Positions 22,213 to 47,356 of a stretch of DNA of 64,000 nt are shown in pieces (position 1 is the first letter of the stretch; each line of letters starts with the position of its first letter). Under the pieces are notes generated by a model. That model had not been told where the DNA came from, searched no databases, and was given only the letters and a program-made list of their open reading frames with translations. This DNA comes from a virus, in IMG/VR virus record IMGVR_UViG_3300025450_000013. One strand, 5' to 3'. Made by a program: the position numbers and the translations under genes.

Positions 22213-25200
22213 CTAGAATTGTGTCAACGAAGCAAGAACTGTATAAGTTGCTGAACCTGTCTTTACTATGGTGTATGTGTAAACATCTATACCATTAGAA
22301 TTACCAGAACTAGGAGGGGATGCTCCTTGCCAGTAAGGAGTAACCGACGTACCATCAATTTGGAATCCTGTTTGATAATATGCTATTGCACCTTGTGTGG
22401 CCATAAATGCTAATGTTACGGTACTTCCGATATTTACTGCTGCATTGTATGTTGAACCTAACCATCCAACATTTATTGTCCAGTTAGCTGTAGAGTTTGC
22501 TGTGTAATAAATAATAGATCCTTGGTTTGGATTAAAACTTATAGTTCCTGTTGCACCAGAAGCAACGATCTTAGTAGTTTCCATTACACTGTTAGCAACC
22601 ATATTAGGTATGGTAACAGTTCCTGAGAATGTGGCACCGCTTAGTGGTGCATAACCACTTGAGGATGTATTGGCAGAATAACCAGAAGGAGATGCCTGAA
22701 CCCATTGGGATCCGTTTGTATCGGTATAGTAGATAAACAAAATTCCTGTATTACTATCCCACCACATATTACCAACACTAGGTGAAGAAGGTGGTGTAGA
22801 ACCAACATTGACAGAAGAACCTGAACCTGTGGATATAACATTTCCATTTATAAGAATGTTAGCAGCATTAATGGTACCATTAACGTCTAGTTTATAACCA
22901 GCAGTTGTTCTACCAATAGCAACGTTACCAGGAATATATAAATCGCCTGCAAGAGAAACACCAGAGGTATTCTGTAATGCGGTGTTTGCCACACCAAAGG
23001 CCGCATTAATAACACCAAAGGCACTATTAACTGCCGTATAAGTTGTATTGGTAAGACCAAAAGCAGCAATAGTGTTGGTTGATACACCATTAGCAAAACC
23101 AAAAGCGGCAGCACCATTAGTTGAAGTATAAGCATTATTTGCCACACCAAAGGCCGCATTAATAACACCAAAGGCACTATTAACTGCCGTATAAGTTGTA
23201 TTGGTAAGACCAAAGGCCGCAGCACCATTTGCTATAGTATAAAATGTAGCATTGGCATAATTGTTTGCATTAGTACCTACAGTATTAGCATATACGTTTG
23301 ACCAGTTATTGGCACCAATACCAGCATTTACAACGTCTGTATTGGATGCAATATAGGTTGTAATAGGTGCTGCATCATTAGAGGTAAATGACCAAGCATT
23401 TGCAGACTCAATCCATAGAATTGCCGCATTAGAGTTTCTTGCACCCCTATTAATTTCTATACCAGCATTTTCTACAGGAACAACACTACTAGGAATATCG
23501 GCATTTAGAGTAATCATATTATCGCCGATATACAAGTTACTTGTATTCAGGGATGTAGAAAGTCCTGAAATGGTAAGGTTACCTTGAACGACAAGATCCC
23601 CTGTAATGGTATCACCGGCCTTCTTTACATAGGTAGAACCAGCATATGTATTAGCATTGTTGGCAACTGTACCTGCTTGGTTAGCAGCACCAAATGCGGC
23701 ATTTGCAATTGTACCTGCTCCGTTTGCCATAACACCGGCATAATTATTTGCTGATGTGGCAATTGTGTTGGCGTATGTATTAGCATTAACACCAACGGTA
23801 TTAGAGTAAACATTAGACCAGTTATTTGTTGAAGCAAACGATGGAACAACATTTACGCCATTGACAACCAATGCGTTTGCTATATTAGCAGTACCAGCAA
23901 CATCCAACTTATACTGTGGATTTGTTGTACCGATACCAACATTGGCACCACCAACAGAATCCTGAATACGCATAGCTTCGTTTGATGCTAAAGTTCCACG
24001 AACGAAGAATGAAACATATTTGTTTGTTACTGATGTATTGGCAGTACCAATTGAGAGAGCACCATCAGATGTATAAACATATCCGTCATCTGCACCGTTG
24101 ATTGTCCAACCTGCCTGATTATATCCGGAACTATTGATACCAACGTCAATAAAGTTTGTAGTATCTGTACCGTTATCGGCAGTTGCAACCAAGTCAGATG
24201 AAGAACCAACACCGTTTGTTGCGTTGCGGATATTCAACTGAGTTGTAAAGTTTGATGTACCTTCAGCATCAAAGATAGCACCGGCAAGTGTGGTTGATGT
24301 GGCACTACCTGTAATAATTTGAACTGGATATGCAGGATTTGCTGTACCAAGACCAATGTAACCAGATGGTGTCAAAGACATAAGAATGTTTGTACCAACA
24401 CCACCAGCAAAGAATTGTAGGCCATCGGATGTACCGACACTGATACGACCATTGCCTGTTACATAATCAACAACAATACCATCTGTAAATGAACCGGTGA
24501 AATTATTTCCTGAATATAGACCGTTATTAGCAGTAATATAACCAGTATGAATTAGATTTCCGTTAAATACAGTGCCACTGGTATTTGATAATTTTGTTGA
24601 TGCATAACCATTGGCACTATTGGCCATAACACCTGCATAGTTATTAGCTGCTGCTACTGAATTATTGACATATGGATAATCCATACCAGGGCTTACAGCA
24701 ACATTTGCAGCGGAAGTCAAACGACCATAGGCATCAACAGTAATTACTGGAATTGATGTAGAACCACCATATGTAGCTGCTGTAACACCAGTAGAAATTA
24801 GATTGATTGTAGGTGTTGTACCACCAGAGCTAAAGATTTGTCCTGATGTACCAGTAACGGATGCTACTTTGGTTGCAGCAACGGCATTTGCAGCATTGGC
24901 CATTGCACCAGCATAACCATTAGCACTATTAGCCATAGCACCAGCATAATTGTTTGCAGATGTGACACCTACTTGTGCAATATCGTTGGCCGCAGCACCA
25001 ACTGATACTGCATATCCATTAGAGGAGTTAGCCATAACACCAGCATAGTTGTTTGCTGCTACGGCAATTGTGTTAGCATATGAATTAGCATATACCGCAA
25101 CCTGATTGGCCAAAGAGTTGGAACTATTGGCCATAGAACCGGCAAAGTTATTAGCAGATCCGGCAGATGTTGCTGTATAACCATTGGCAGCATTTGCCAT

Positions 25201-27810
25201 TGCACCAGCATAATTATTGGCTGATGTTGTGGATGCATTTGTATAGTTATTTGCAGCAATTGCTATTGTATTAGAATATCCGTTAGCAGCAATGGTAGCA
25301 AAGTTTACGTAAGCATTTCCTGCCGTACCAACAAAGTTAGCATATGCATTGCCTGAAGCACCAATTGTTATAGCATAAGCATTTGCTGATGTGGTTGACA
25401 GGTTGACATAAGCATTTCCAGAAATACCTACGGTATTACTATAGGCATTAGATGCTGCTAAACCAACATTGGCATTATTGTATGCTGCATTAGCAACACC
25501 AAAGGCCGCATTGGTAACATTAAATGCTACGTTATCTTGAGCACCTAAAGCATTAGCACCACCAAATACGGTATTTACAAGGTTAAATGCCGCAACTCCG
25601 ATATTGGCTTGTAAAGTTCCATATTCGGACGCTGTTAGATGGAAGAACTCTGTGTTTGGTAACCCACCTTGAATACCAGCCAAAGAGTTATGCGCAGGAT
25701 TGGTAGGAACACTGGCAGATGGTGCAGTTGTAATGTTTAGCGCACGAGGAGCAACGGCAAGTTGTGCTTTACCGGATGTGTTAAATGAGTTTTTTGCGAA
25801 CCATGTAAATTGGTATGCAAAGACATACTCAACACCTTGTAGTGATGACCAATCCCATGTTGTAATGTCTTCCAACTGTGCCGCAGAAGATGAACCAAAT
25901 TCACCTCTACCATTGACGAATATAAAACGACCGGCACCTTGATAGGTTGTAAATAACAAATAAGAGTTATAATAATTATTATTTTTTCCTGCTGTCAGTG
26001 TACCATTATTATCCCACTGGATGATACCACCATCGTGATAATAAGGCATATCGGAAAAACCCCAGGTCCATACATCAGGACCTGAAGATAATCTATAATA
26101 TGTGATATAGTTATTACTTGCAACACCTGTAACGTTCAATGCTGATTGAGTTTTTGTTAAGGACTCTTCTTGTAATATGGTGGTACTAACACTAATAAGA
26201 TTATTAGCATTTGATGTACCACCTACAGTATATCCGCTTAATGCACCTACAGTTGTTGCTCTTGTACCAAGAACAGTATGTAAATAATAATCTAATGTTG
26301 TTGTTGAAGAAGATAAGAACCTTTTATCATCCAAATGGAACATTGGGCTAGTATAAGAATTATATTGAATGAAGGCAACTGGAACAGTGGTTGGGTCATT
26401 CATATTCCATGCTGTTGTAGAAACTGTTAGTGTGCCATTTGTATCGTTATTAATACTAACCCAATAATTACCATTAGCGGCAGGTGCTGATATCGCAAGA
26501 TTTGCAGTTCTGGCACCATAACAAACATATCGCTGGCCATTCATATAGTAAGCCCAACCATTGTTTGTATTAGCAAGAGTGAATGTATTGTTTTGATATC
26601 CACCAAGTGAAATGGATGTATCACTTTGCCTTACAAAACCACGCATCTGGAGATCGTATGTGGTATTGGCAGAGGTTGATGCTGCTACGTTTGAGATTCC
26701 GTATACGGTATTGACAATACCAAATACAGCGTTTGTTAGTGTATAGTTAGCATTTCCTGAAACATAACCAGCATTAGCAACACCAAATGCAGCATTAGAA
26801 ACTTGATAAGCACCTATAGTAGCATAAGATGCCTCAGTATAAGCATTGACCGCATTTGCCATTGCACCAGCATAGTTATTAGCTGCCGATGTGGAAACAT
26901 TTACATAGGCATTACCTGAAACACCAACGGTATTAGCCCAGGTATTAGATGCTGAGGTTGATAAGTTGACATAAGCATTTACTGCCGCAACCGCAACGTT
27001 TGTATAGTTATTGGATGCTATTGCTACTGTATTGGCATAGGCATTGGCATTTACTCCAATTGATCCGGAATAAGCATTAGCAGCAGCACCTACAAAGTTA
27101 GCATAAGCATTACCGGAGATACCAATGGTATAAGCATAACCATTGGAACTATTTGCCATGATTCCAGCATAGTTATTACCTGATGCACCAACTGATACTG
27201 CATAACCATTGGAAGCATTTGCCATAGCACCGGCATAATTATTAGCACTTTGAGTTGCTGTATTTACATAAACATTACCTGAGGCACCAACTGTATTTGC
27301 CCAGTTGTTAGCAGCAACAGAGATAGCATTAGCATTACCGTAGGCAGCATTGGCAACAATAAAAGCAGCATTAGCAATTCCACCAACTGTGTTGGCATAA
27401 CCACCAACTGTATTTGTTGACCCAAAAGATGCATTAATAACACCAAATGCACTATTAACTGCGGCATAAGTCGTATTGGTTAAACCAAATGCTACATTGG
27501 TAGTATCATATGACGAATTAGCAACTGTGTATGCCGCATTAGCCTTATTAAATGCAGGAGAAAGATCCGGTGTCAAAGATGCTGCATAAGCATTAGCACT
27601 ATTAGCCATAGCACCTGCATAGTTATTTGCAGCATTTGTAGATGTGTATGTATAAGCATTAGAGGAATTTGCCATATAACCAGCATAGTTATTGGCAGAA
27701 ATGATTGATGCTAGAACGTTTTGCCCGGCAACCAACAGTGTTGGATTTGTGATGTTTGCATTAGCAGTGACAACTAGCCCATTGCGGACTACAAATTCTT
27801 TGTTTGACAC
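22213..27810 (-). CDS. Long tail fibre-like protein (1865 aa)
   Basis: GTG start, N-terminal KEFVVRNGL; long Ala/Asn heptads; TGVTAATYG..IPVITVDAYGR; GIGT repeats; C-terminal GIDVYTYTIVKTGSATYTVLASLTQF module. Confidence 0.8.
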   Translation of the reverse strand: MSNKEFVVRNGLVVTANANITNPTLLVAGQNVLASIISANNYAGYMANSSNAYTYTSTNAANNYAGAMANSANAYAASLTPDLSPAFNKANAAYTVANSSYDTTNVAFGLTNTTYAAVNSAFGVINASFGSTNTVGGYANTVGGIANAAFIVANAAYGNANAISVAANNWANTVGASGNVYVNTATQSANNYAGAMANASNGYAVSVGASGNNYAGIMANSSNGYAYTIGISGNAYANFVGAAANAYSGSIGVNANAYANTVAIASNNYTNVAVAAVNAYVNLSTSASNTWANTVGVSGNAYVNVSTSAANNYAGAMANAVNAYTEASYATIGAYQVSNAAFGVANAGYVSGNANYTLTNAVFGIVNTVYGISNVAASTSANTTYDLQMRGFVRQSDTSISLGGYQNNTFTLANTNNGWAYYMNGQRYVCYGARTANLAISAPAANGNYWVSINNDTNGTLTVSTTAWNMNDPTTVPVAFIQYNSYTSPMFHLDDKRFLSSSTTTLDYYLHTVLGTRATTVGALSGYTVGGTSNANNLISVSTTILQEESLTKTQSALNVTGVASNNYITYYRLSSGPDVWTWGFSDMPYYHDGGIIQWDNNGTLTAGKNNNYYNSYLLFTTYQGAGRFIFVNGRGEFGSSSAAQLEDITTWDWSSLQGVEYVFAYQFTWFAKNSFNTSGKAQLAVAPRALNITTAPSASVPTNPAHNSLAGIQGGLPNTEFFHLTASEYGTLQANIGVAAFNLVNTVFGGANALGAQDNVAFNVTNAAFGVANAAYNNANVGLAASNAYSNTVGISGNAYVNLSTTSANAYAITIGASGNAYANFVGTAGNAYVNFATIAANGYSNTIAIAANNYTNASTTSANNYAGAMANAANGYTATSAGSANNFAGSMANSSNSLANQVAVYANSYANTIAVAANNYAGVMANSSNGYAVSVGAAANDIAQVGVTSANNYAGAMANSANGYAGAMANAANAVAATKVASVTGTSGQIFSSGGTTPTINLISTGVTAATYGGSTSIPVITVDAYGRLTSAANVAVSPGMDYPYVNNSVAAANNYAGVMANSANGYASTKLSNTSGTVFNGNLIHTGYITANNGLYSGNNFTGSFTDGIVVDYVTGNGRISVGTSDGLQFFAGGVGTNILMSLTPSGYIGLGTANPAYPVQIITGSATSTTLAGAIFDAEGTSNFTTQLNIRNATNGVGSSSDLVATADNGTDTTNFIDVGINSSGYNQAGWTINGADDGYVYTSDGALSIGTANTSVTNKYVSFFVRGTLASNEAMRIQDSVGGANVGIGTTNPQYKLDVAGTANIANALVVNGVNVVPSFASTNNWSNVYSNTVGVNANTYANTIATSANNYAGVMANGAGTIANAAFGAANQAGTVANNANTYAGSTYVKKAGDTITGDLVVQGNLTISGLSTSLNTSNLYIGDNMITLNADIPSSVVPVENAGIEINRGARNSNAAILWIESANAWSFTSNDAAPITTYIASNTDVVNAGIGANNWSNVYANTVGTNANNYANATFYTIANGAAAFGLTNTTYTAVNSAFGVINAAFGVANNAYTSTNGAAAFGFANGVSTNTIAAFGLTNTTYTAVNSAFGVINAAFGVANTALQNTSGVSLAGDLYIPGNVAIGRTTAGYKLDVNGTINAANILINGNVISTGSGSSVNVGSTPPSSPSVGNMWWDSNTGILFIYYTDTNGSQWVQASPSGYSANTSSSGYAPLSGATFSGTVTIPNMVANSVMETTKIVASGATGTISFNPNQGSIIYYTANSTANWTINVGWLGSTYNAAVNIGSTVTLAFMATQGAIAYYQTGFQIDGTSVTPYWQGASPPSSGNSNGIDVYTYTIVKTGSATYTVLASLTQF
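22978..23103. repeat. 126-bp exact dispersed repeat, copy 2
   Basis: Identical to 1404-1529. Confidence 0.9.
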
Positions 27811-27871: not shown

Positions 27872-29797
27872 TTAATCATCAAGTGTTGTTCTTAATACTC
27901 TAATTGTAGAAGAAGCATACTTAGGAACAACATTTAATCTAACTTCACCTAAAGTAACAGATGCACTAAATGTAGCAAGAATGTTGGAAGTATATAACAA
28001 TCCATATTCTGTAATAAATGTATCTGTGCTATTATGAATTAGAGAAATCTGTGTGGTTTCCCATTCAACACCAGCGTCAATTGTAATAGTATAATGAGCC
28101 GAACGATATGAAGTTGTTTGGAAATGGTCTAGAATTTGGTCATTATTTGAAGATGTTGTTAATGTAAAGTTTGTAAGTTTGGAAGATCCTACTGTTACAC
28201 TTCCTGTAATTATCAGGTCACCATTAAATACACTACCAGAATTATTTGCAAGAGCATTGTTAGCAGTTGTAAATGCCGTGTTGATAACACCAAATGCTGA
28301 ATTAACAGCGGTATAGGTTGCATTTGTCAGATTATATGAAGTATTGGAATTATCAAATGCTGCATTAGCAATTGTCATAGAGGTGTTTACATAACCATAT
28401 ACGGTATTTGATAAATATCCAGCATAGTTATTTGCGGAAGATGTGGATAAATTTGTATATGAATTACCTGATGTTCCAATTAAATTGGCATATACATTAC
28501 CTGAAATACCTACTGTAGTAGCATAACCATTAGCACTATTGGCCATCTGACCTGAATAGTTATTGGAAGATTCAATGTCTGTATTAGAAGCTATGTATAA
28601 TTCTTTAGAACCATCATTAGTAAAAGCCCACTTAGTTGCTGATTCATCCCAAACAAGATATGTATTAGAACTTGTGCCTCTATTAATTGATAAACCACTA
28701 TTTACACCGAGTGGTGCTGAACCTGATGGTAGTTCAGCATTTAAGACAATAGTGTTATCACCTACTAAAAGTTTCTGAACATTGGCATAAAGAGTGGTAC
28801 CTTTGACGGTAAGATTACCAGATACAGAAACATCACCTGTAACTGTTCCACCCGCATAAGGAAAATATGTTGCAGATGCATAGGCATTAGCAGAATTGAC
28901 CATTGCACCGGAATGGTTATTAGATGAGGCGGTGGATAGGTCCGTATAAGAATTACCAGAGGTACCAATTAGATTAGCATAAGCATTGCCCGAGGCACCA
29001 ACGGTATTGGCCCAAGTGTTTGCATTTACACCTACCGTATTTGCAAACGTTCTAGCATAAGAATTGGAACTATTTGCCATCTGGCCGGAATAGTTATTAG
29101 CAGCATTTGTGGATGTATCTGTATAACTATTAGCAGATGTTCCTACAAGATTTGCATAAGCATTACCGGCAGCACCAACTGAAACTGTATATCCATTAGC
29201 ACCTATACCAGTATTGTATGCTAGAGAATTTGCAGAGTTTGCTTTATCAAATGCTGCATTAGCAGTATTAAATGCAGGAGCAACCTGAGGAGCAACATTA
29301 TTGGCAGATTCAAAGGCAGCATTAGCAACATCATAAACAGAATTAGCAGCAAAATAAGCAGCAGCAGCAATGTCAAATGCTGCATTTGCTCCATCTAAAG
29401 CAAGGTTTGCTCTATTACTAATGTCTGTAAAATTTAATCCACCTGAAAGAGTATTAGCATAGTCAAACGCGACATTGGCAATGTCAAATGCTGGTTTTAG
29501 ATTAGCACTAATAGTTATGATGTCGTTGATAATATCGGAAGTAATACCAATATTTTGACCTGGAACTATAGAAAGAACTGAACTATTACTTAGTGCTGTA
29601 ATAAGAGAGTTATTGGCATTAATAGTAGCAAAACTATAAACATTACCAGAACCAGAAAAACTTACAATTTGTCCTGTAACGTTTTTATAATAAAATTTAC
29701 CATCAGCATAGTTAAGAGCAATCTCACCATTGGACAGGCTATTTGGTATATGAGACGGTACGCCGGAACTTTTAAGTTGAATTACTGTGTTTGACAT
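27872..29797 (-). CDS. Fibre/virion structural protein
   Basis: N-terminal IQLKSS...P.SL.NGEIALNYADGK; Ala/Asn heptads; C-terminal YRSAHY..TEYG..LATF..VRL domain. Confidence 0.75.
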   Translation of the reverse strand: MSNTVIQLKSSGVPSHIPNSLSNGEIALNYADGKFYYKNVTGQIVSFSGSGNVYSFATINANNSLITALSNSSVLSIVPGQNIGITSDIINDIITISANLKPAFDIANVAFDYANTLSGGLNFTDISNRANLALDGANAAFDIAAAAYFAANSVYDVANAAFESANNVAPQVAPAFNTANAAFDKANSANSLAYNTGIGANGYTVSVGAAGNAYANLVGTSANSYTDTSTNAANNYSGQMANSSNSYARTFANTVGVNANTWANTVGASGNAYANLIGTSGNSYTDLSTASSNNHSGAMVNSANAYASATYFPYAGGTVTGDVSVSGNLTVKGTTLYANVQKLLVGDNTIVLNAELPSGSAPLGVNSGLSINRGTSSNTYLVWDESATKWAFTNDGSKELYIASNTDIESSNNYSGQMANSANGYATTVGISGNVYANLIGTSGNSYTNLSTSSANNYAGYLSNTVYGYVNTSMTIANAAFDNSNTSYNLTNATYTAVNSAFGVINTAFTTANNALANNSGSVFNGDLIITGSVTVGSSKLTNFTLTTSSNNDQILDHFQTTSYRSAHYTITIDAGVEWETTQISLIHNSTDTFITEYGLLYTSNILATFSASVTLGEVRLNVVPKYASSTIRVLRTTLDD

Positions 29798-40200: not shown

Positions 40201-40890
40201 ATTATATCTCTCAAGGATTGTTGACTGAGTTGGAAAGTATATAAAGTGGTCTTTAGCAAAGAATACACCTTCTGAAATCTCAAACCAAGAAGCATAGCCT
40301 GTGTTAGCAACAGGGTCATTATCCAATACAATAGCAGTGGTTATTGTATTTGCTATTGTTAAAGTTTCACCAGCTGGAAATACTCGTTGCTGAGAATTTG
40401 CGGATGAAGCAGTGAGATACTGAACATATAATGTTTTGGTATTTGTAGATGTACCATCAGTATCTAATACTGTGATAACCTGAGCAGAAATATTACTGGA
40501 TGCGCCTGTTACTGTCTGACCGATAAAGGTCTGAACGTTTACGGTATTACCTAAAGGAGTTGTATTTTTAATTTTAACATAAGGAAGTGGATTACCTTTT
40601 ACATCTCCGTAATTTGATCGGATATTAAAAGCACCAGGAATAATGATAGAACCGTCTTTGTAGATATTTGTACCAAATCGTTTGATCTGGCTTTGTATCA
40701 TTGTCTGTAATTGTGTTAGTTCACGGGCCTGAACTGAATAACCAGGTTTAAAAAGGATGCGATAGTATTCTTTTGCTGGATCGTAGTCATCATAATAAGG
40801 TAGAACGTTAAAATTGGTTGACAAACTACTTTGAATCTGGTTTGCAGAATTTGAATATGTATTTGCACCGTTAAAATCTGTGAATGACAT
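34264..40890 (-). CDS. Large baseplate/virion protein (VrlC/DUF4815-like) containing an intein
   Basis: NFNVLPYYDDYD.AKEYYRILFKPGYSVQARELTQLQ, APGADRL, YTMRDLG.LD.RI.NLEYY.SL, FKNGIFVDNF, C-terminal LRAIAL. Confidence 0.88.
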   Translation of the reverse strand: MSFTDFNGANTYSNSANQIQSSLSTNFNVLPYYDDYDPAKEYYRILFKPGYSVQARELTQLQTMIQSQIKRFGTNIYKDGSIIIPGAFNIRSNYGDVKGNPLPYVKIKNTTPLGNTVNVQTFIGQTVTGASSNISAQVITVLDTDGTSTNTKTLYVQYLTASSANSQQRVFPAGETLTIANTITTAIVLDNDPVANTGYASWFEISEGVFFAKDHFIYFPTQSTILERYNPNPSSLVGFYVYEDIVTSSTDSSLLDPALQSSNYGAPGADRLRLDPELTVLPYGTTPPADFITLFAIANGNIQILNDQTQFNSINDAMAQRMYDVDGDFVVSGLGVQLQEHENNGVNNGRYTPAQGGNTDLLITSVSAGRAYVKGYSLTNPGKYDITITKPLDYQNVGIQVSSTAMGQYVTVNEFVGTWYADVGSRVYFYDTPNQRITNGGAPYGQKWSTGAVVGNQIGSAIVSSVEYVSGTKGYDAVYNVYLTDITMNSGYNFSQVLSLYYIGSGAHSGADIVGATFGTANTVIQATYPQPLLYYVGSSSTKTVRNVDGGGSVTYYYNQTGSSLSLTTFGNVSLTIATGLSGTQTLPYGNGYLSETEIADDIILTYQASTNIGPLWGGATVSTLGSACTTIHGVSTYFTYLNVGDKVEITGLSNTYYITAIANDSVMTLSAPVPATVTTNSIFKAYKTGDIANLNGVGVRNGLQRVVIATPTTLLIDMQEGYSNTVPVTVTYRMATEGIQEVPKTLTPGRYVLISVGSHPNGITGPYPLGFSDVYKIRNVIRKSGSQPTSLNDGTDVTSYFKLDNGQRDTMYDTASIVPIAGFVPGASDYLLVYFDYFLPNFGNYSGYFTIDSYNIDDFTVPTPTNAIRTEQIPIYISPSYRKSYDLRNYLDFRPVKLNIANDVTSASSPSLSVNPIKSTSFYYSNELFFPVPSTQLTYSYSYYLGRQDVLVGNKNGVLSVLKGTPAVTPVPPTALDTQMAIAIISLAPYPSLSPAYGNLIGRQDLACSVQTVSTKIYTMRDLGILDNRISNLEYYASLTLLESSAINMNITNANGLNRFKNGIFVDNFKDSSSSAILTNPDMRISFDPIELCIRPIYSSKPIYYDYLGGSETVMSNGKITFTYTENQYFSQPWVTRWMNLERNAYYYVGRMTLNPSDDVWVDTQYAPDQYVNITSQGALIDVTVGTGPAVPVSTAVQTTQWLGETWGAWTQFITGYTVYGTGWAATNEPSKTFSTYADAASYVDTWVHSYGKGGATIVQTTENDRIGASNFVTYQSGQAVGGYNVIDTSIIPYIQPQDIIVNVSNLKPNSRMYSFFDTVHVDAYCTPLTEEQFNAVSRVNTYTTAGVQNPQVSTLLSTSGWAKMGDPLIVNPDGTLYFSFKIFDTVKNPGTPKFQTGQRVMLIQDDLALNPGTLSVAQDVTTWAQAYFFAQGTQQTLQETVYSTNSVQYTSTPLQQSYLSYANTTIVNTTPPPYSCFNPEAKVLMADKTWKPISDVNIGEKVIGANGDINTVMKSRTINVGDRKMVKFQEGFYATDDHIFLTDKGWKTWDPKSVIRKNGTNQHILEGENREEGIDPLDKLKIVDMESDDKINFKFVDYKTLGTEIVDFDPDYTVYDLTLSGDSTYIVEGYVVHNCCMAYNVNIKVPSDEEGVYCLGYDVFVQAKSATRDLWFEIRTLDAAGQITNTQLPGSYVYIKNADIPVSTNGINNPLQIRFPYPVFLNNNRSYAFTIHGTAGAGGLVDPDTYLWVAQLGQQDRNNGASFNNRQQYGNFYFTNDNITWNLITDTDLTINVYTATFNQGVATCTLGEQGIEKWYLSDVSASFGSLINDHFVSGDTLTLSGVSGTITVGDTLTGNVSGATAAGQLISVSGSNYQTSNTRYQLGEKVTATSGGQGIVAGIANNSAVLTFYNDNYSNVYVEMSHSTGGFKVGDWIQDTRSGGYAFHAKITDILNYTYSGAQFQPDILNFTKTGSQYAMDTYQVGALSDNGYVNVTDSSATFFKNEMQIYSKSLESSALSGNRSNKVQVQFESNSIYTSPLLDLSSTYSVLIDNLVNADATGETNPRGGSALNKYISETITLAPGQAANDLNVYLTNYRPPGTDILVYCKLMNQYDTDNFDNKPWILMPYQGNSGQVYSSASDTSNYIDFSYVLPTSVLTGPSGEFQYTLNGTTYTNFQYFAIKIVLLANNPASVPKASELRAIALQL
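35983..36459 (-). mobile_element. Mini-intein (Hint domain, 159 aa, no homing endonuclease)
   Basis: Block A CFNPEAKVLMAD, block B ATDDHIFLT, blocks F/G VYDLTLSGDSTYIVEGYVVHN followed by Cys+1. Confidence 0.88.
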
Positions 40891-40905: not shown

Positions 40906-42228
40906 TTAGAAACTTAGAACTATTTTGAAATCTTCATTTTGATCTGTAGCACGTTCAATGGATGTGATGTTGTCCTTATATAGGATATACCCCTTATAAG
41001 GTTGACAGTCAGGTTGTTGTACCGAACTAAGGTATCTGGCCGCAGCAGATTTATAACCTGTTAGCAATGATGAAGTTGGAGTACCTTGAATATTATTTAC
41101 TTTTATTATAGAATTTGCAGAATCCCATGCAGCAACCACACCTGTAAATGTAGCATTGGCCAAGCTGGTTCCCTGATAAACTGTTTCATCTAATAAATAA
41201 TTCGTTGTTGAACTACTCTGACTCAAAGTTATTGAAGTTAATTGCGAAAACGCAGTATTTGTCATAGGAGTCGTTGTACCATATACTATAGGTTCTTGTA
41301 GTAAAGAAATCTGTCTATAATTACCTTGAGTATTAATTACACCATTTTCATCACCATCTAATTGTATGTCTATCATGACATAAGAACCACCTAATTCATA
41401 TAATGCGTCAGAACCATGCCCACCTGGAGGGCTGATGATCGCTCTTGCGGTCGCACCTACACCCACAGGTGAACTGATTGTTACATTGGCCCATGTATAT
41501 CCTGAACCAAAGTTATCAACAATGACACTTTCTACCTTTTCTGTTTGAGTATTAACCATAGGATAAGCATTAGCAAAACGACCATCACCTACTATAGAAA
41601 TTGAAACAATATCATCATAGACATATCCTTCACCTCCATTAGTAATTAAAATACTATTAATAGCACCAGGAACAGCGTCCAATTGAACTTGATACTGTAG
41701 AGAGTTATCATCCGATAAGATTGTTTTTACAGGCATAAAACTATCCGATAAAAATCTTTGTTGTTCATCACCCGTTAAGGTATACATGTATTTCCAAAAA
41801 TATAAATCAGCAGTTTGAAAAATAATACCTGGGTTAGCAGATGTTGGTTTATAGGTAGAAGGTTGACCGTAGTTGTTAGCAATACATTTATAGACGTTGA
41901 AATCATCTGTCAAAACATAATAGGAAGTATTAGCACCTTTAGTTAAAGAATCCTGATTTTGATCATATGCAATATATGTGGTATTTGCTGCCCAATTTAT
42001 ACGTGGAATAACATGTCGGACATCAGCACCATTAATAAGTTTACCACCAATCATGTTCCACCAGGTTTCATAATAAGATGAAACTGAAGTGTTGGCCTGT
42101 GGAGGATAAAGTTCACTGTCCCAAGGAGTTTGATAACCAAATGTTAAATAGACGTTTGAGGATTCAATGCTTTTTATGAATTGTTCTGCTGTGAAAACTT
42201 CAAGGTCTTTAGAGTATGTTGATGCCAT
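40906..42228 (-). CDS. gp8: Baseplate wedge subunit
   Basis: W.NMIGGK.I, VIPRINW, YVLTDDFNVYKCI.N, D.YFWKYMY, PPGGHGSD...ELG, EDFKIVLSF. Confidence 0.92.
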   Translation of the reverse strand: MASTYSKDLEVFTAEQFIKSIESSNVYLTFGYQTPWDSELYPPQANTSVSSYYETWWNMIGGKLINGADVRHVIPRINWAANTTYIAYDQNQDSLTKGANTSYYVLTDDFNVYKCIANNYGQPSTYKPTSANPGIIFQTADLYFWKYMYTLTGDEQQRFLSDSFMPVKTILSDDNSLQYQVQLDAVPGAINSILITNGGEGYVYDDIVSISIVGDGRFANAYPMVNTQTEKVESVIVDNFGSGYTWANVTISSPVGVGATARAIISPPGGHGSDALYELGGSYVMIDIQLDGDENGVINTQGNYRQISLLQEPIVYGTTTPMTNTAFSQLTSITLSQSSSTTNYLLDETVYQGTSLANATFTGVVAAWDSANSIIKVNNIQGTPTSSLLTGYKSAAARYLSSVQQPDCQPYKGYILYKDNITSIERATDQNEDFKIVLSF

Positions 42229-42250: not shown

Positions 42251-42258
42251 TATTTATA
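42251..42258 (-). promoter_or_regulatory. T4-type late promoter TATAAATA
   Basis: Exact match upstream of gp8. Confidence 0.72.
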
Positions 42259-42883
42259 TGCCAAATCTACCACGATAACGACTGAAACTCTGAAAAATCT
42301 CGCTATTTGAAAGAACTTTATTATAGAATTGAATTATTCCAATCTTACCATCCATTATACTGGTAAGATTAGCACTATTGTTTGCAGTATATCTTCCACC
42401 AATGTAAATAGGTTGGTCTGTATCGGTTGCTGAGTTAGCATGGCCAGAGGAAACGTTTGTTAGATTTCCGTTTAGATATCCTTTGATGTTTACACCATCA
42501 TAGGTAAATGCACCCATAACCCAGGTATTTGCGTTTATAGTATTAGCAACCACAATCTTATTATTAGAGGTCATTGGGCTAACAACGACTTCAAGGTTCT
42601 TCCCGTAGTTATAAAAATCATAACCCCTTGAACCATCTTTAGCAGTTTTAGATACTAGGCTTCTTCCATTACTTGCTGTATTAGCAACATAAAACCATGT
42701 AATAACTGTTAGTAAGTTTGCAACATTCATTGATGGTTGATGTGTCATAATAACAGATGAATGATTACCATCAAACAAGATTCCACCACCATAATAGTAG
42801 GTATCATTATTCATTAGAGTAGCAGATTGGTTGGTATTAGCACTATTATACCAAACATTTGGTGAAAGTGAAGAGAATCCCAT
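42254..42883 (-). CDS. LamG/concanavalin A-like lectin domain protein
   Basis: GILFDG, TVITWF, W....TYDG...K.YLNG, IGG, GKIG.IQFYNKVLS.SEI.Q.F...RGRFGI. Confidence 0.82.
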   Translation of the reverse strand: MGFSSLSPNVWYNSANTNQSATLMNNDTYYYGGGILFDGNHSSVIMTHQPSMNVANLLTVITWFYVANTASNGRSLVSKTAKDGSRGYDFYNYGKNLEVVVSPMTSNNKIVVANTINANTWVMGAFTYDGVNIKGYLNGNLTNVSSGHANSATDTDQPIYIGGRYTANNSANLTSIMDGKIGIIQFYNKVLSNSEIFQSFSRYRGRFGI

Positions 42884-42887
42884 ATGT

Positions 42888-45281
42888 TTACCTCTGATCC
42901 ACTGTTACACGGCTGCTATCAGCTGTTGGTACCGATTCATCTGTTGTAATCATAGCAAAGTATTCAATATTATCCCCATGGTCTACTGTATATTGTGCAG
43001 CATCCAAAGAAATAATGAGATTTCTAGTATGAACACCAGATTGAATAGCGGAGTTAATGACATTAACGGTATTCATTAAAGTCTGGTTATTATCTTCAAA
43101 CAGATATTCACCGTAAAGTTTAAAACCAGCAGGATGAATTAAATCTTTTAAAGGTTTTCTATATTTATTTAAGGGTTCTGAAATCTTTACAACGTAAGAA
43201 TAATTCTGATAATAATCTCTATTTTGAATAACATAAGGTGAACTCAACTGGCCTGCCTGATCAAGGTATCGGCCTGGATAGGTGTAAATGCCTGTAACAA
43301 TATTAGCATATGCCTGAGCAGTACCGTCACCTTGTGTTGATAGATCAAGGATTGGTGGGTATTGGTAACCTAAACCACCTGAAATAATTTTAAGTGAAGC
43401 AATAGATCCGATAACGTTTGAATATGCATTTAGAACCGCGTCATCTGCAATAACTGCTGAGACAACGATATTAGCACCTACACCATTTGCAGTATTGATT
43501 ACCGCAGTAGGAAGCATATCTGCACGATAACCATAACCACCAGGTAACATACCTGGATCTGCTATGAAGTTTACTTGCTGAATTGTTCCATTAGCATCTA
43601 CAACCGATACCTGACCGTTAGCACCATAACCGTATGTTCCGTGAGGATTGACAAATAGTATTTGATCACCGTTAGCATAACCGAACCCACCATTGGCAAT
43701 GTCCATTCTACCTAGGATTCCTATAGAACGAACAGTGGTATTTGATAGCACCGAAACTGTAGGTAATTCAACATATCCAGTACCTGGATTTTCAATGGCA
43801 GTAGCAATAATTGGTCCGCAAGGTCCATATGTCCAATAATTAAAAGAATTGGCTAATATTGTATTAGCATTTGGTTTCTTTAAAACAGTAAATGAAACGT
43901 TATTGAGACCGCCGGCAAGACCTGGTTCAATTGTTAGGTACCAATCATATTTGTTACTTGCTACGATATATTGATACGTATCTTGGACAAAAAGAACATC
44001 ACCAGTTTCAAAATAAACGTTTGAATTGGCTAAGTTTTTATTTAATGTTACTTCATTTATCCTACTACCAAATTCGGTACTAATATCAAGATTTGATGTG
44101 GTTGTATAAATGGTTGCTAAGTTGGTGTATGCTTGAGTTTCCCATATATCACCTATAGCATTTTGAATTATAGTATCAGCAACTTGATCAATAGTTGAAC
44201 CAATAATTTTGTAATTTGCAGCATGGTAATGTTCTAGTGTATCAACAGAATACACATTAGCCGCGGCATTTGAACCACCACCACCTACGAACAATAATTG
44301 GTCATTTGCTTTATAACCTGCACCAGCAAAAATCACACTGACATTTTTGATTTTACCTTCAAGATGACTTTTAGCAACTTTACCAATAATGATCTGCCCA
44401 CCAAACCCAAATTCTAATGTTCCGTTTGAAACACCTTGACCAAATTGATTAGTTGGTATTACAGGTACAGATGCACCTTCAACATAACCAGAACCTGGAG
44501 ATGTAACAGTGGTACTAGTAATAATACCAGAATAAACATTAGCAGACAGAGTTTTAAAAATGCCTTGATCTTCAATTGTTGCAGTAATTGCCTCACCATC
44601 TAAGAAGTCTTTTAATACATTTGATAATACCAATTCAGTTACTAGAACACCGTTTTGATAATATGGATTAACACTCTCTACTGTTGCAGAAGAATTTGAT
44701 GTAGCACCAGTAATTGTGGTATTAACAAACCTAGAAAATGCAATACTATTAGCAACGTTATTAACGGTAACGTTTTTAATGTTAAGGGTTCTTTGTATAA
44801 ACCAATTACCATCCGAGGCTTTTAAAATATTATTTTGTGGATAATAAACAGAAGATTCTTTGTTAAAAAGAATACGTGTTAAAAATCTGATAGATTTTTC
44901 TGAACCTCTAGAACGATAGAAATCCTTAGAATGTTTAAGAACTGTTATAGGATTCGCTAATAAATCTGAAGGAATAAATTTACTAAAGTTATTGAAAATT
45001 TGAGTGTTTAGAAGATGATATTTTTCATCTTCAGGTACCGAAAAAGCAAATTCATGACTAAATCTATTTTCAACTTGATCTTCTAGATAATCTTCATTTA
45101 ATGTATCAACATCAAAGAAGTCAGGAAATCTTTTGGTGGTATACATCAAACCACCATCTTGTTCCAAGAACTTATAATAAGCCTCTAAAAACTCAACAAA
45201 CCTAGGATGGTCCCTTCTTACAAACTCAGGAACTTGTGTATTGACTAAGTATGATGTTTTATTATTGGATGAATCAACCAT
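42888..45281 (-). CDS. gp7: Baseplate wedge initiator
   Basis: QVPEFVR.DHP.FVEFLEAYYKFLE, KDFYRSRGSEKS..FL.RILF, DYYQNYSYV, HPAGFKLYG. Confidence 0.85.
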   Translation of the reverse strand: MVDSSNNKTSYLVNTQVPEFVRRDHPRFVEFLEAYYKFLEQDGGLMYTTKRFPDFFDVDTLNEDYLEDQVENRFSHEFAFSVPEDEKYHLLNTQIFNNFSKFIPSDLLANPITVLKHSKDFYRSRGSEKSIRFLTRILFNKESSVYYPQNNILKASDGNWFIQRTLNIKNVTVNNVANSIAFSRFVNTTITGATSNSSATVESVNPYYQNGVLVTELVLSNVLKDFLDGEAITATIEDQGIFKTLSANVYSGIITSTTVTSPGSGYVEGASVPVIPTNQFGQGVSNGTLEFGFGGQIIIGKVAKSHLEGKIKNVSVIFAGAGYKANDQLLFVGGGGSNAAANVYSVDTLEHYHAANYKIIGSTIDQVADTIIQNAIGDIWETQAYTNLATIYTTTSNLDISTEFGSRINEVTLNKNLANSNVYFETGDVLFVQDTYQYIVASNKYDWYLTIEPGLAGGLNNVSFTVLKKPNANTILANSFNYWTYGPCGPIIATAIENPGTGYVELPTVSVLSNTTVRSIGILGRMDIANGGFGYANGDQILFVNPHGTYGYGANGQVSVVDANGTIQQVNFIADPGMLPGGYGYRADMLPTAVINTANGVGANIVVSAVIADDAVLNAYSNVIGSIASLKIISGGLGYQYPPILDLSTQGDGTAQAYANIVTGIYTYPGRYLDQAGQLSSPYVIQNRDYYQNYSYVVKISEPLNKYRKPLKDLIHPAGFKLYGEYLFEDNNQTLMNTVNVINSAIQSGVHTRNLIISLDAAQYTVDHGDNIEYFAMITTDESVPTADSSRVTVDQR

Positions 45282-47356
45282 TATGCTTGTGGAACCATAT
45301 TTAACTGAACAGCTTGAATATTATTTGTATCAATAGCCAACAATCTATTTCTTAAAGGAGGTATAACGGTTAGCTCAGGAACAACGTTTACTGTTAATAT
45401 ATCCTGATCATAGTATGGATTTAAAACCAATCCTAATACATTAAAACTTGTTAATGTGATAATACCATTTAGATAATCAATTGTTCCTGCATTATTATTA
45501 ACATATACTTTTTGACCGTTTGTAGCATAATAATACGATCTGAGAGTACCTTTATTTGCTGCTAATGTCACAGAAAGGGATGCTTCAGTACCAGTCAAAT
45601 CGGTAATATTAGCATATGCTACAGTATAATTAACACCTGGATTAGTGATAACGACACTAATTATTCTTCCATTTAAAATGGATGCAGCTGCTGTGGCCCC
45701 TGTTCCATCACCTGTAATGGTAACAGTTGGATTGATATAGTTAAAACCAGGGTTAACAATTGATATTGAACCTATACCAGTATATGCCTGAGGTACTTCT
45801 TCCAGATATACGTTCTGTGGGTTTCCGGCTGAGTCAGGAACTGTGACTTGAGGATATGTATATAGTTTCTGATACTGGTCACCTTTTCTAATAGGTGTGT
45901 TGAAATTAATTGTATAAGACTGAGTTGTTCCTGGTACCAGCTTAGCTCTGTTTTGTAAATAGATATTAATATCAGATGCGGTGATAGATGGATCGGAACT
46001 TTCAATAAAATTTTGTAATTTAGACAAAATGAATGTTGACTGGAAATTATACAAATATTGTTGAGCATATTTAAAAATTGCTGAAGAAACTTCATTTGCA
46101 AGATATGCAGATGACTGAGTTGTTAAAGATGGATTGTAATAAACATTTCCTTGTACCTGAACAAAAATATATTCTGGGTCAATAATCTCTGGAATAACAG
46201 TCAATACGTTTCTATTCTTGGTCAAATAGTTTTTAATGTTTTGTTTTTCCAACTGAGTTAGTGTATAATAACCACGGGTCTTTAGTGATAGATAAACTTT
46301 ACCATAAACAGGTGGAATGTTTTCTTCACCACCCCAAACAGACACAGCCTCAATATCTGGAAAGTCTTTTGTAACCAATGCTTCATAATCGTTTACTGTA
46401 ACGCAACGGTTTTGTGCAGTATAAAAGTATGGAGCACGGAATCGGATGGCCTCAATGTCTTCTTTATTGGTACCACCATATGATCCAATTGAGGTGGTAA
46501 CTTTAACATTACTTCTAAACAGTCCTGCAATAGGATCGGTGAAAATATATTTCTGAATACCATTAGCAATGGCACCAACCGTATCAAGATATGTTACCTG
46601 TATAATATTACCATTGGAAGGAGGATTACCTAGAATACCATCACCAAAGTAGATTGTATAGTTTAGGTCTTGGTCTTCTTCCAAAAAATATACAGTAGAG
46701 TTGGCTTGAATTTGTGTAAGGTCTTGTGCTTGGAAATATTGTGTCGTCTGTGTATTTGATGCTGATTCCTGGACAGTAACGGTCAATGTGGAGGTGTCAA
46801 CGTTAGCAGATGGAATCTGATATCGGCCTGTAAGGTTATTAGCAGTGACCAAATACTGATAGGTCATAACCTCACCTTGTTTAATCACAACGTTAGCAAA
46901 TGTGAATGAACCATTAACCTTATATGCGGTATTAGCATTTACTGTAGCAAATGGATAATTGACACCATTAATATCGGATCCAACCAATCTGGTATATTGG
47001 TTCATAATAATATAACTGACGATTGGATTTTCACTAGCACCAGGTGTTACTTTAACATTAACCAAAGATTGTGCACCGTGTGCGGATTCTGGAACGTAGT
47101 TAATCAACTTTGCATGTGAAAGGATATTCTTACGATCCTGTGCGGTATCAAGAAACGCTTCATTAGCAATCATATTGAGATAGAAAGCATTATAATAGGT
47201 GTTATATGCCAAAATATCCAATAGAATAGACATACCAGAACCAGCAAAGTTATAATCGCTGAAGGTATCCTGACTTTGTAGAAAGGTAATAAGATTATTC
47301 TTAATGGTGGAAAAATCTAAATCTGTTACCCTAAGTGATGTATTGCCGGTTGCCAT
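45281..47356 (-). CDS. gp6: Baseplate wedge subunit
   Basis: LDFSTIK.NL..FL..Q..FSDYNF.GS, LAYNTYYN, AQNRCVT..DY, VWGGE...PP.YGKV. Confidence 0.95.
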   Translation of the reverse strand: MATGNTSLRVTDLDFSTIKNNLITFLQSQDTFSDYNFAGSGMSILLDILAYNTYYNAFYLNMIANEAFLDTAQDRKNILSHAKLINYVPESAHGAQSLVNVKVTPGASENPIVSYIIMNQYTRLVGSDINGVNYPFATVNANTAYKVNGSFTFANVVIKQGEVMTYQYLVTANNLTGRYQIPSANVDTSTLTVTVQESASNTQTTQYFQAQDLTQIQANSTVYFLEEDQDLNYTIYFGDGILGNPPSNGNIIQVTYLDTVGAIANGIQKYIFTDPIAGLFRSNVKVTTSIGSYGGTNKEDIEAIRFRAPYFYTAQNRCVTVNDYEALVTKDFPDIEAVSVWGGEENIPPVYGKVYLSLKTRGYYTLTQLEKQNIKNYLTKNRNVLTVIPEIIDPEYIFVQVQGNVYYNPSLTTQSSAYLANEVSSAIFKYAQQYLYNFQSTFILSKLQNFIESSDPSITASDINIYLQNRAKLVPGTTQSYTINFNTPIRKGDQYQKLYTYPQVTVPDSAGNPQNVYLEEVPQAYTGIGSISIVNPGFNYINPTVTITGDGTGATAAASILNGRIISVVITNPGVNYTVAYANITDLTGTEASLSVTLAANKGTLRSYYYATNGQKVYVNNNAGTIDYLNGIITLTSFNVLGLVLNPYYDQDILTVNVVPELTVIPPLRNRLLAIDTNNIQAVQLNMVPQA

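What the first reader, a model, noticed from the sequence alone, without database searches (positions are those of the whole stretch)
22213..47356. Ala-Asn (often A-N-x-S/T) motif enrichment in surface virion proteins: possible acceptor code
Seen: fibres are saturated with AN/SN motifs, and conserved globular wedge proteins carry them too. By hand count gp8 has 9 AN dipeptides in 440 aa, five of them N-x-S/T sequons (ANTS twice, ANTT, ANVT, ANAT), versus 1 in gp32 (328 aa) and 2 in the 987-aa internal tape-measure-like protein. gp6, gp7, gp14, gp15 and the LamG protein appear to follow the same trend. Inference: these Asn sites are selected as acceptors for the island's enzymes (N-glycosylation, or Asn hydroxylation then glycosylation), giving a glycan-coated virion.
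Basis: partly seen in the sequence, partly recalled or inferred. Interest (0 to 1): 0.8.

Follow-up and report, generated by a model that had tools for sequence, protein, structure and literature searches.

The report
Ala-Asn excess on phage tail proteins
The outer tail and fibre proteins of this uncultured T4-like phage carry over twice the expected Ala-Asn pairs, a real trait shared by whole related clades. It is not a classical sugar-attachment signal and does not depend on the sugar-enzyme island next to it.

Summary
The Ala-Asn (AN) excess is real. AN is the most over-represented of 400 dipeptides in the fibres (185 vs 87) and the outer baseplate (59 vs 24; 0/1000 shuffles each). It is at expectation in inner baseplate, neck and non-virion proteins. 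It is directional, since NA is not enriched, and it acts at protein level. N-x-S/T, SN, N-T-x-T and D/E-x-N-x-S/T are not enriched. The refined outer-baseplate motif is hydrophobic-A-N-[T/S/G] (4.9x).

In the fibres, about 60% of AN sits in a 7/11-residue shaft repeat. In gp7, gp8 and the VrlC-like protein the excess is clade-specific: gp7 2.64 vs 0.62 and gp8 2.41 vs 1.17 in other T4-like clades; T4, S-RIM8, HTVC008M about 1. It persists with almost complete turnover of positions, so the dipeptide itself is under selection.

The link to the island fails. The island is a hypervariable "host recognition cluster". Its enzymes were not found in AN-rich relatives, one spanning the whole cluster and one 90% complete. 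The one cultured phage with a close homologue of its 572-aa TPR/GT-like-methyltransferase protein is AN-poor.

What reads AN is unknown. A modifying enzyme or assembly factor encoded elsewhere is my best guess; a purely structural habit is nearly as likely. This scan found the same motif before on other DNA.

The parts
22213..27810 (-). 1865-aa tail fibre; AN 88 vs 41.7 expected
   Evidence: The sequence carries repeats such as SANNYAGAMAN and xNxA[FY]xx. Asn positions autocorrelate 2.4x at lag 7 and 2.0x at lag 11.
27872..29797 (-). 641-aa fibre; AN 30 vs 11.4
30474..31604 (-). 376-aa fibre protein; AN 15 vs 6.5; built of 14-residue double heptads (TNAAYTL ANANFDV)
32171..34057 (-). 628-aa fibre; AN 21 vs 12.3; Asn autocorrelation 2.9x at lag 7 and 3.1x at lag 14
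   Evidence: The AlphaFold model has mean pLDDT 40 and is uninformative.
34264..40890 (-). 2208-aa VrlC-like baseplate protein (DUF4815); AN 16 vs 10.2. It marks one border of the host recognition cluster.
   Evidence: Across the orthologue family the AN ratio is 2.06 in AN-rich lineages and 1.11 in AN-poor ones.
40906..42228 (-). gp8 baseplate wedge protein, 440 aa; AN 9 vs 2.0
   Evidence: In the AlphaFold model (pLDDT 88) the AN sites lie in loops, at strand starts or in one hairpin turn. Orthologues give 2.41 in AN-rich lineages vs 1.17 in AN-poor ones.
42254..42883 (-). 209-aa LamG/concanavalin-like protein; AN 8 vs 1.7
42888..45281 (-). gp7-like baseplate wedge protein, 797 aa; AN 16 vs 4.9
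   Evidence: Orthologues give 2.64 in AN-rich lineages vs 0.62 in AN-poor ones.
45281..47356 (-). gp6 baseplate wedge protein, 691 aa; AN 10 vs 5.0. The excess is not lineage-specific.
   Evidence: Orthologues give 1.47 vs 1.49.
2..2345 (-).
7922..15508 (.). Genes: HldE-like kinase/nucleotidyltransferase, cupin, small protein matching a phage 'phosphoheptose isomerase' family, epimerase, methyltransferase, GT25, a 278-aa unknown, and two paralogous TPR + GT-B-like proteins (408 aa; 572 aa with a C-terminal methyltransferase).
   Evidence: Not found in AN-rich relatives, apart from two weak partial matches.
47357..53082 (-). Inner baseplate genes (gp25, gp5-like, gp53 and neighbours). Pooled with the neck, they show no AN excess and serve as an internal control.
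   Evidence: 19 vs 17.

Best explanation
The AN excess is a selected, protein-level signature of the outer tail that is shared by whole clades. It is not the acceptor code of this phage's private sugar island, and it is not an N-x-S/T sequon. It has two layers.

(1) Fibres. About 60% of AN is the near-invariant Asn of a 7/11-residue shaft repeat, with Ala as the preferred small residue before it. This layer is structural. The sequence periodicity is shown; the fold is not resolved.

(2) gp7, gp8, the VrlC-like protein and the LamG protein. Here AN is a short scattered motif, hydrophobic-A-N-[T/S/G]. Its density is kept at 2-3x expectation while its positions turn over almost completely between orthologues. 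The same orthologues in other T4-like clades lack it.

That pattern points to ongoing, lineage-specific selection on the dipeptide itself. The simplest cause is a trans-acting reader conserved in these clades and encoded outside the window. It could be an Asn-directed modifying enzyme or an assembly factor.

Shown: the enrichment, its directionality, its protein level, its restriction to outer proteins, its clade distribution, the positional turnover and its independence from the island. Inferred: that a reader exists, and what it is.
For: - AN is the top dipeptide of 400 in both enriched groups; NA is not enriched.
- 0/1000 shuffles reach the observed count; inner and non-virion proteins are at expectation.
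- All synonymous codon pairs are used, and GCNAAY is confined to frame 0.
- Asn shows period 7/11/14 in the fibres, and 111 of 177 fibre AN have another Asn exactly 7 residues away. In the outer baseplate only 15 of 59 do.
- AN[TSG] is 4.9x and ANT 5.9x in the outer baseplate.
- Controls: T4 0.95, S-RIM8 1.16, HTVC008M 1.19, and BUCT-ZZ01 and Ochrobactrum phage OC about 1.
- AN is the top dipeptide in four groups of uncultured relatives (z 11-22) and not among the top seven in three others.
- Orthologue contrasts are 2.64 vs 0.62 for gp7, 2.41 vs 1.17 for gp8 and 2.06 vs 1.11 for VrlC. gp25 and gp5 are not enriched.
- On the gp8 tree the trait needs 5 changes, against 20.7 for shuffled labels.
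- Between AN-rich orthologues at 45% identity or less, only 0.5 of 7.3 AN sites (gp8) and 1.2 of 14.8 (gp7) share a column. The unshared sites alone are 2.2-2.3x expectation, the highest of all dipeptides.
- Coupling of A and N in adjacent columns is the strongest of all dipeptides in the gp8 alignment.
- Independence from the island.
Against: - No modification is shown, and no reader is identified for this phage. Its genome beyond the 64-kb window is not available.
- At conserved A or conserved N columns of gp8, AN-rich and AN-poor lineages do not differ significantly, and gp6 goes the other way.
- In the gp8 model the AN Asn residues are not placed differently from other Asn residues.
- Poor alignment at low identity inflates apparent positional turnover.
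- The only enzyme that co-occurs with the trait is a GT2 found in 5 of 5 long AN-rich genomes. All five were found through close GT2 homologues of G004, so they may be one lineage, and it is confounded with ancestry.
- pf16 has an AN-rich capsid protein (10 vs 3.1) without that GT2.
Confidence: 0.42

Rival explanations
1. A purely structural habit with no reader. AN is a favoured way in these lineages to build the fibre shaft repeat and to cap or begin beta-strands in outer-domain loops. It persists by descent and by exchange of modules among fibre and baseplate genes.
For: - 63% of fibre AN lies in heptad-spaced Asn repeats.
- In gp8 the AN sites sit in loops, at strand starts and in a hairpin turn.
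- AN is often followed by a beta-strand-like alternation of residues.
- There is no difference at conserved columns of gp8.
- The trait is strongly clustered by ancestry.
Against: - Orthologues with the same fold in other clades do without AN: gp7 0.62, and T4, S-RIM8 and HTVC008M about 1.
- Positions turn over almost completely while density stays at 2.2-2.3x.
- Outer-baseplate AN shows no heptad spacing and no extended shared context.
Confidence: 0.33
2. The AN Asn residues are acceptors for the enzymes of the island at 7922-15508, by N-glycosylation or by hydroxylation followed by glycosylation.
For: - The island sits among structural genes.
- It encodes a nucleotide-heptose pathway and GT25.
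- It also encodes two TPR + GT-B-like proteins, an architecture that suggests protein substrates.
- A 2OG-Fe(II) oxygenase lies nearby at 5053-5730.
Against: - Island proteins were not found in AN-rich G001 (whole host recognition cluster covered) or in G004 (90% complete). Twenty AN-rich contigs searched gave only two weak partial matches.
- BUCT-ZZ01 carries the closest homologue of the 572-aa protein and is AN-poor.
- N-x-S/T is not enriched.
- The known protein heptosyltransferases modify Ser, not Asn (PMC4358343).
- The fibre-like gene next to the island (RCC1 repeats) is depleted in AN and rich in Ser/Thr.
Confidence: 0.06
3. An artefact of composition, local low complexity, DNA-level bias or internal repeats.
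For: The fibre repeats inflate the raw counts, and fibre sites are not independent of each other.
Against: - NA is not enriched (0.67 in the outer baseplate).
- All codon pairs are used, and GCNAAY is in frame 0 only.
- Non-repetitive gp7, gp8 and LamG are the most enriched proteins.
- The excess holds across relatives from 31% to 51% GC.
Confidence: 0.03
4. The reader is outside the phage. AN density is selected by the host or the environment, for example by adhesion to a host surface polymer, by evasion of a host protease or defence that senses tail proteins, or by a host enzyme.
For: - The excess is restricted to outward-facing proteins.
- Density is maintained while positions change.
- Ochrobactrum phage OC, the only cultured and only AN-poor row inside an AN-rich gp8 clade, infects a sewage-derived Ochrobactrum host.
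Against: The hosts of the AN-rich clades are unknown, so nothing could be tested here.
Confidence: 0.1

Closest known systems
Chlorovirus PBCV-1 Vp54 N-glycosylation at atypical sites (PMC9614988, PMC5408694)
   Same: It is virus-encoded, independent of the ER, and puts glycans on Asn residues of a virion surface protein outside N-x-S/T. Three of the four sites read N-T-x-T. Here Asn is likewise followed by Thr more often than expected (ANT 5.9x).
   Different: N-T-x-T itself is not enriched here (5 vs 3.4 in the outer baseplate, 5 vs 7.7 in fibres). No glycan has been shown. The host is bacterial. The transferase is unknown in both systems, so homology cannot be tested.
Host recognition cluster of pelagimyophages and cyanomyophages (Zaragoza-Solas et al. 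2020, PMC7029224)
   Same: The window's island lies between the VrlC gene and gp14. It mixes tail-fibre genes with glycosyltransferases and an rfaE/HldE-type gene, exactly as that paper describes (map).
   Different: That paper attributes the glycosyltransferases to modification of host LPS and says nothing about an AN motif. The AN trait is clade-wide, whereas this cluster is hypervariable.
Bacterial autotransporter heptosyltransferases TibC/AAH (PMC4358343)
   Same: They are cytoplasmic GT-B enzymes that use ADP-heptose to hyper-glycosylate repetitive beta-rich adhesins. The island pairs an ADP-heptose-type pathway with two GT9-like GT-B candidates, and it lies next to repetitive fibre genes.
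   Different: TibC modifies Ser, not Asn. The window's proteins carry TPR repeats. Their GT9-like fold rests only on language-model and predicted-structure look-alikes.
Mycobacteriophage virion glycosylation (Freeman et al. 2023, as cited in PMC11256854)
   Same: Phage-encoded glycosyltransferases put glycans on virion proteins, forming a glycan shield.
   Different: There the glycans are reported on major capsid proteins. No AN motif or Asn linkage is described in what I read, and the original paper was not read here.
Asn-bearing heptad/hendecad stalks of trimeric fibres (coiled coils with Asn in core positions; recalled from memory)
   Same: The fibres show Asn periodicities of 7 and 11.
   Different: The residues are beta-prone (V, T, I, Y, F) with few charges. 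The AlphaFold model is low-confidence and draws short strands rather than helices. A helical fold is therefore not supported.

Membership tests
Canonical N-glycosylation (oligosaccharyltransferase/PglB, or cytoplasmic NGT/HMW1C) | Acceptor sequon N-x-S/T (D/E-x-N-x-S/T for PglB) over-represented on the target proteins | tested here: not met
   N-x-S/T is 0.95 in fibres and 0.88 in the outer baseplate. D/E-x-N-x-S/T is 7 vs 5.0 and 4 vs 5.0.
Canonical N-glycosylation (oligosaccharyltransferase/PglB, or cytoplasmic NGT/HMW1C) | An STT3/PglB or GT41 transferase gene | tested here: not met
   Pfam scans of all 48 ORFs of at least 100 aa in the window found neither. The rest of the genome was not available.
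Chlorovirus-type atypical N-glycosylation | Site motif N-T-x-T or N-I-P-G | tested here: not met
   N-T-x-T is 5 vs 7.7 in fibres and 5 vs 3.4 in the outer baseplate. Only the shorter A-N-T is enriched.
Chlorovirus-type atypical N-glycosylation | Asn-linked glycan shown by mass spectrometry or a structure | not testable with these tools
   No virion material or proteomic data exist for this uncultured phage.
Host recognition cluster (PMC7029224) | A variable island between the VrlC gene and gp14 that holds tail fibres plus glycosyltransferase/LPS-type genes | tested here: met
   VrlC-like gene at 34264-40890 and gp14 at 3373-4260. Between them lie fibres, GT25, the HldE-like gene and the TPR-GT candidates. 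Its content is not conserved in G001 or G004.
BAHT (TibC/AAH) protein heptosylation | ADP-heptose supply | tested here: inconclusive
   Present: a PfkB kinase + cytidylyltransferase fusion of the HldE type, an epimerase, and a small protein matching a phage family named phosphoheptose isomerase. The sugar made was not established.
BAHT (TibC/AAH) protein heptosylation | GT-B heptosyltransferase catalytic domain | tested here: inconclusive
   Pfam finds only TPR repeats. Atlas look-alikes are TPR + Glyco_transf_9 proteins, with TM 0.85-0.89 by query. The closest PDB sequence match is only a TPR protein.
BAHT (TibC/AAH) protein heptosylation | Ser acceptors in beta-helical repeats; iron-finger dodecamer | not tested
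   Features taken from PMC4358343. They were not examined in the window's proteins.
Trimeric coiled-coil stalk with core Asn | Heptad or hendecad periodicity | tested here: met
   Asn autocorrelation is 2.0-2.9x at lag 7, about 2x at lag 11 in the two largest fibres, and up to 3.1x at lag 14.
Trimeric coiled-coil stalk with core Asn | Alpha-helical structure | tested here: inconclusive
   The AlphaFold model of the 628-aa fibre has pLDDT 40 and draws short strands. It was folded as a monomer from an 8-sequence alignment.

The most novel reading that the evidence does not exclude
Hydrophobic-A-N-[T/S/G] is the recognition site of a phage-encoded cytoplasmic Asn-modifying system. The system would be conserved in several uncultured T4-like clades and encoded far from the tail genes. 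It could be an N-glycosyltransferase of a new specificity, loosely parallel to chloroviruses, or an Asn hydroxylase. It would coat the outer baseplate and fibres. One concrete candidate is a GT2 found in 5 of 5 long AN-rich genomes retrieved through their GT2 gene (relatives of G004). It is absent from 6 AN-poor complete genomes, including Ochrobactrum phage OC, which is nested among AN-rich relatives.
Probability: 0.22. Interest if true: 0.85.

Novelty: new variant of a known kind. Interest (0 to 1): 0.55.

Why it matters
If AN marks modification sites, T4-like phages abundant in lakes and oceans would decorate their host-recognition apparatus through an Asn-directed chemistry not known in bacteria or phages. 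That would bear on host range, on adsorption and on how tail proteins are recognised. Other notes from this scan report different short motifs (D-S; S/T-G/A-S) on the same proteins in other clades, which I did not test. Together these would suggest clade-specific codes.

Even if AN is only structural, the finding has practical uses:
- N-x-S/T counting is the wrong test for such claims.
- Sugar genes inside the hypervariable host recognition cluster cannot be assumed to act on the virion.
- Dipeptide signatures can separate outer from inner baseplate proteins in uncultured phages.

Tried and rejected
- **DNA-level cause.** Rejected: all codon pairs are used and the hexamer occurs in frame only.
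- **Local A/N-rich composition.** Rejected: NA is not enriched.
- **GT25 plus the P4H-like oxygenase acting on hydroxylysine of the neighbouring collagen-like protein.** The collagen-like region has Pro in the Y position and no Lys among the commonest X/Y residues, so a collagen galactosyl-hydroxylysine analogy fails. Prolyl hydroxylation remains plausible.
- **The P4H-like oxygenase (5053-5730) as the tracking enzyme.** It is present in AN-rich G001 and G004 at 42-46% identity. AN status was not measured for the cultured cyanophages that carry 29-36% homologues, so orthology is not resolved.
- **Conserved-column test** (A placed before conserved N, or N after conserved A). No significant difference for gp8, positive for gp7 on very few columns, reversed for gp6.
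- **Fold of the fibre repeat.** The model is unusable.
- **Finding the window's own contig or the rest of its genome.** Not held, and no exact match in the viral or metagenome collections. Metagenome relatives are all shorter than 70 kb and cannot be searched by handle.
- **Relatives of the 408-aa TPR-GT protein in IMG/VR.** None found.
- **A cultured AN-rich phage.** None found; the nearest cultured relatives are AN-poor.

Full report
**What the window is.** It is a divergent T4-like myovirus of the aquatic "Kyanoviridae-like" kind. Its gp8 is only 29-33% identical to those of Pseudomonas phage pf16, Pelagibacter phage HTVC008M and cyanophages. There is no nucleotide-level match in 50,697 phage records.

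The gene map comes:
- 2-2345: two gp9/10-like proteins.
- 2369-5011: gp15, gp14 and gp13.
- 5053-5730: a P4H-like 2OG-Fe(II) oxygenase.
- 5658-6119: an Asn-rich 153-aa protein.
- 6130-7878: a collagen-like protein (37% Gly).
- 7922-15508: the sugar island.
- 15563-19852: a 1429-aa protein with 15 RCC1 repeats.
- 19862-20356: a tail-fibre chaperone.
- 21232-22203: an NHL propeller.
- 22213-34057: the fibres.
- 34264-40890: a 2208-aa VrlC-like protein.
- 40906-47356: gp8, a LamG protein, gp7-like and gp6.
- Beyond 47357: gp25, gp5-like, gp53 and a baseplate hub protein, then gp32, gp59 and PhoH.

**The observation.** With expectations computed from each protein's own composition, AN is the most over-represented of all 400 dipeptides in two groups:
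- Fibres: 185 vs 87.5, z 10.4.
- Outer baseplate group (VrlC-like, gp8, LamG, gp7, gp6): 59 vs 23.9, z 7.2.
- All remaining proteins: 44 vs 45.3.

Within-protein shuffles give 0/1000 for both enriched groups. The control groups sit at expectation:
- Inner baseplate, neck and tail: 19 vs 17.
- Non-virion proteins: 18 vs 16.
- RCC1 protein, collagen-like protein and a 276-aa fibre-like protein: 7 vs 12.

The bias is directional: NA is 0.67 in the outer baseplate. It also acts on the protein. All synonymous Ala-Asn codon pairs are used roughly in proportion to codon usage, and GCNAAY occurs 59 times in frame against 7 out of frame and 10 on the other strand.

- N-x-S/T is 0.95 and 0.88 of expectation.
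- SN is 1.03 and 1.12.
- Given an AN, Ser or Thr at +2 is no more frequent than background.
- The chlorovirus motif N-T-x-T and the PglB motif D/E-x-N-x-S/T are not enriched either.

What is enriched beyond AN is the residue directly after it. ANT is 14 vs 2.4 and AN[TSG] is 30 vs 6.1 in the outer baseplate. A hydrophobic residue often precedes the motif.

**Two layers.** In the fibres, Asn positions show strong periodicity: 2.0-2.9x at lag 7, about 2x at lag 11 in the two largest fibres, and up to 3.1x at lag 14. 111 of 177 AN have another Asn exactly seven residues away. The residue before these periodic Asn is Ala in 41% of cases, then Thr, Ser, Asn or Val (sequences). So most fibre AN belongs to a shaft repeat. 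I could not settle its fold: the model of the 628-aa fibre has pLDDT 40.

In the outer baseplate proteins there is no such periodicity (15 of 59, near chance) and no extended shared context. In a confident gp8 model (pLDDT 88), the nine AN sites lie in loops, at the first residues of strands, at one strand end and in one hairpin turn. They are not placed differently from the other 21 Asn residues.

**A clade trait under selection.** T4 (0.95), S-RIM8 (1.16), HTVC008M (1.19), BUCT-ZZ01 and Ochrobactrum phage OC (both about 1) lack the excess in the same proteins.

I fetched eighty uncultured relatives through gp8. Pooled into seven groups, AN is the top dipeptide in four (z 11-22) and not among the top seven in the other three, across 31-51% GC. 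Comparing AN-rich with AN-poor lineages within orthologue families gives:

| Family | AN-rich | AN-poor |
|---|---|---|
| gp7 | 2.64 | 0.62 |
| gp8 | 2.41 | 1.17 |
| VrlC-like | 2.06 | 1.11 |
| gp6 | 1.47 | 1.49 |
| gp25 | 0.38 | 1.10 |

gp5-like is 0.97 in the AN-rich lineages.

On a gp8 tree the trait occupies three large clades and needs 5 changes, against 20.7 for shuffled labels. The cultured AN-poor phage OC is nested in one AN-rich clade, on a long branch.

Positions are not conserved. Between AN-rich orthologues at 45% identity or less, only 0.5 of 7.3 sites (gp8) and 1.2 of 14.8 sites (gp7) fall in the same alignment column. The unshared sites alone are 2.2-2.3x expectation, the highest of all dipeptides. 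Coupling of Ala and Asn in adjacent columns is also the strongest of all dipeptides in the gp8 alignment (144 vs 107).

These results argue for continuing selection on the density of the dipeptide in certain lineages. There are caveats. Low-identity alignments exaggerate turnover. A test on conserved A or conserved N columns was not significant for gp8 and went the wrong way for gp6.

**The island is not the cause.** The island sits between the VrlC-like gene and gp14. That is the "host recognition cluster" described for pelagimyophages and cyanomyophages: hypervariable, and often carrying glycosyltransferases and rfaE (PMC7029224).

Its content here is as follows:
- an HldE-type kinase/nucleotidyltransferase;
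- a cupin;
- a small protein matching a phage family named phosphoheptose isomerase;
- an epimerase;
- methyltransferases;
- GT25;
- a 278-aa protein of unknown function;
- two paralogous proteins whose look-alikes are TPR + Glyco_transf_9 proteins.

The set resembles a nucleotide-heptose pathway with protein-directed transferases. The known protein heptosyltransferases modify Ser (PMC4358343).

None of these proteins has a homologue in AN-rich G001, whose 69-kb contig spans the whole cluster, or in AN-rich G004, which is 90% complete. Twenty AN-rich contigs searched gave only two weak partial matches: one below the GT25 cut-off, and one 74-residue stretch of the HldE-like protein. The one cultured phage with a close homologue of the 572-aa protein is AN-poor.

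**Search for another enzyme.**
- The P4H-like oxygenase, the 153-aa protein and the collagen-like protein are shared with G001 and G004. Cultured cyanophages carry 29-36% homologues of the oxygenase, but their AN status was not measured.
- G004 has glycosyltransferases elsewhere in its genome: a GT2, a GT1 and a capsule-synthesis-like protein.
- The GT2 occurs in four further long genomes. All four have AN-rich gp7 and gp8 (gp8 1.5-3.0, gp7 1.6-2.5).
- A search with the G004 GT2 protein found no homologue in six AN-poor complete genomes. A Pfam GT2-family search of five of them, not T4, also found nothing above the cut-off. GT1 is present in AN-poor phages too.
- This is a lead only. The five genomes were all found through close GT2 homologues of G004 and may be one lineage, so the association is confounded with ancestry.
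- No contig of the window's own clade reaches the part of the genome where the GT2 would lie.

**Verdict.** The AN excess is real, specific and selected. The sequon flavour and the link to the island are not supported.

My best reading, at 0.42, is a clade-conserved trans-acting reader of hydrophobic-A-N-[T/S/G] on outer tail proteins, laid over a structural fibre repeat. A purely structural habit stands at 0.33.

I found no published description of the motif. The scan's own earlier notes report the same AN signature on other DNA. I treated those notes as leads and tested what I could.

Noticed in passing
window 35983-36459 (-), residues about 1478-1636 of the 2208-aa VrlC-like protein: A mini-intein-like insertion. 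It has a Hint match at its start (Cys-Phe-Asn-Pro...), a T-x-x-H block, and ends His-Asn followed by Cys. Relatives encode the VrlC-like protein as two or three separate ORFs.
   Followed up: partly
window 7922-15508: An ADP-heptose-type pathway (HldE-like fusion, epimerase, small phosphoheptose-isomerase-family match) lies beside two paralogous TPR + GT9-like proteins. One of the two is fused to a methyltransferase. This is a candidate protein-heptosylation system. The Ser/Thr-rich RCC1-repeat protein next door (15563-19852) is a more natural target than AN sites.
   Followed up: partly
window 5053-7878: A trio of collagen-like protein (37% Gly, Pro in the Y position, a His/Cys-rich middle), a 153-aa Asn-rich protein and a P4H-like 2OG-Fe(II) oxygenase. 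The trio is conserved in relatives G001 and G004. The oxygenase ORF as called overlaps the 153-aa ORF by 73 bases (5658-5730), so its true start is probably later.
   Followed up: partly
window 15563-19852: A 1429-aa protein with 15 RCC1 repeats sits among the fibre genes. It is depleted in AN (2 vs 7.5), and N-x-S/T is slightly high (32 vs 24). It has no homologue in the four sequenced relatives.
   Followed up: no
L090:13136-13852 (G004 93136-93852) and L105-L125: A 238-aa GT2 is present in all five long AN-rich genomes examined. It is absent from six AN-poor complete genomes, including the nested Ochrobactrum phage OC. In G004 it lies in a cluster with a methyltransferase, a Capsule_synth-like protein and two unknown proteins.
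   Followed up: partly
L082:38315-39601 (Pseudomonas phage pf16 major head protein): The capsid protein has 10 AN against 3.1 expected, although pf16's gp8 and its large baseplate protein show no excess.
   Followed up: no
L087:308-5160 (G004 20308-25160): The host recognition cluster of this AN-rich relative carries CsgG (a curli secretion component), a FecR-like protein and a CHASE2-adenylate/guanylate cyclase instead of sugar genes.
   Followed up: no
all 80 gp8 loci (L001-L080): The Ser-Gly dipeptide is enriched 1.4-1.9x in the large ORFs of six of the seven groups, whether AN-rich or AN-poor. It looks like a general feature of these tail proteins.
   Followed up: no
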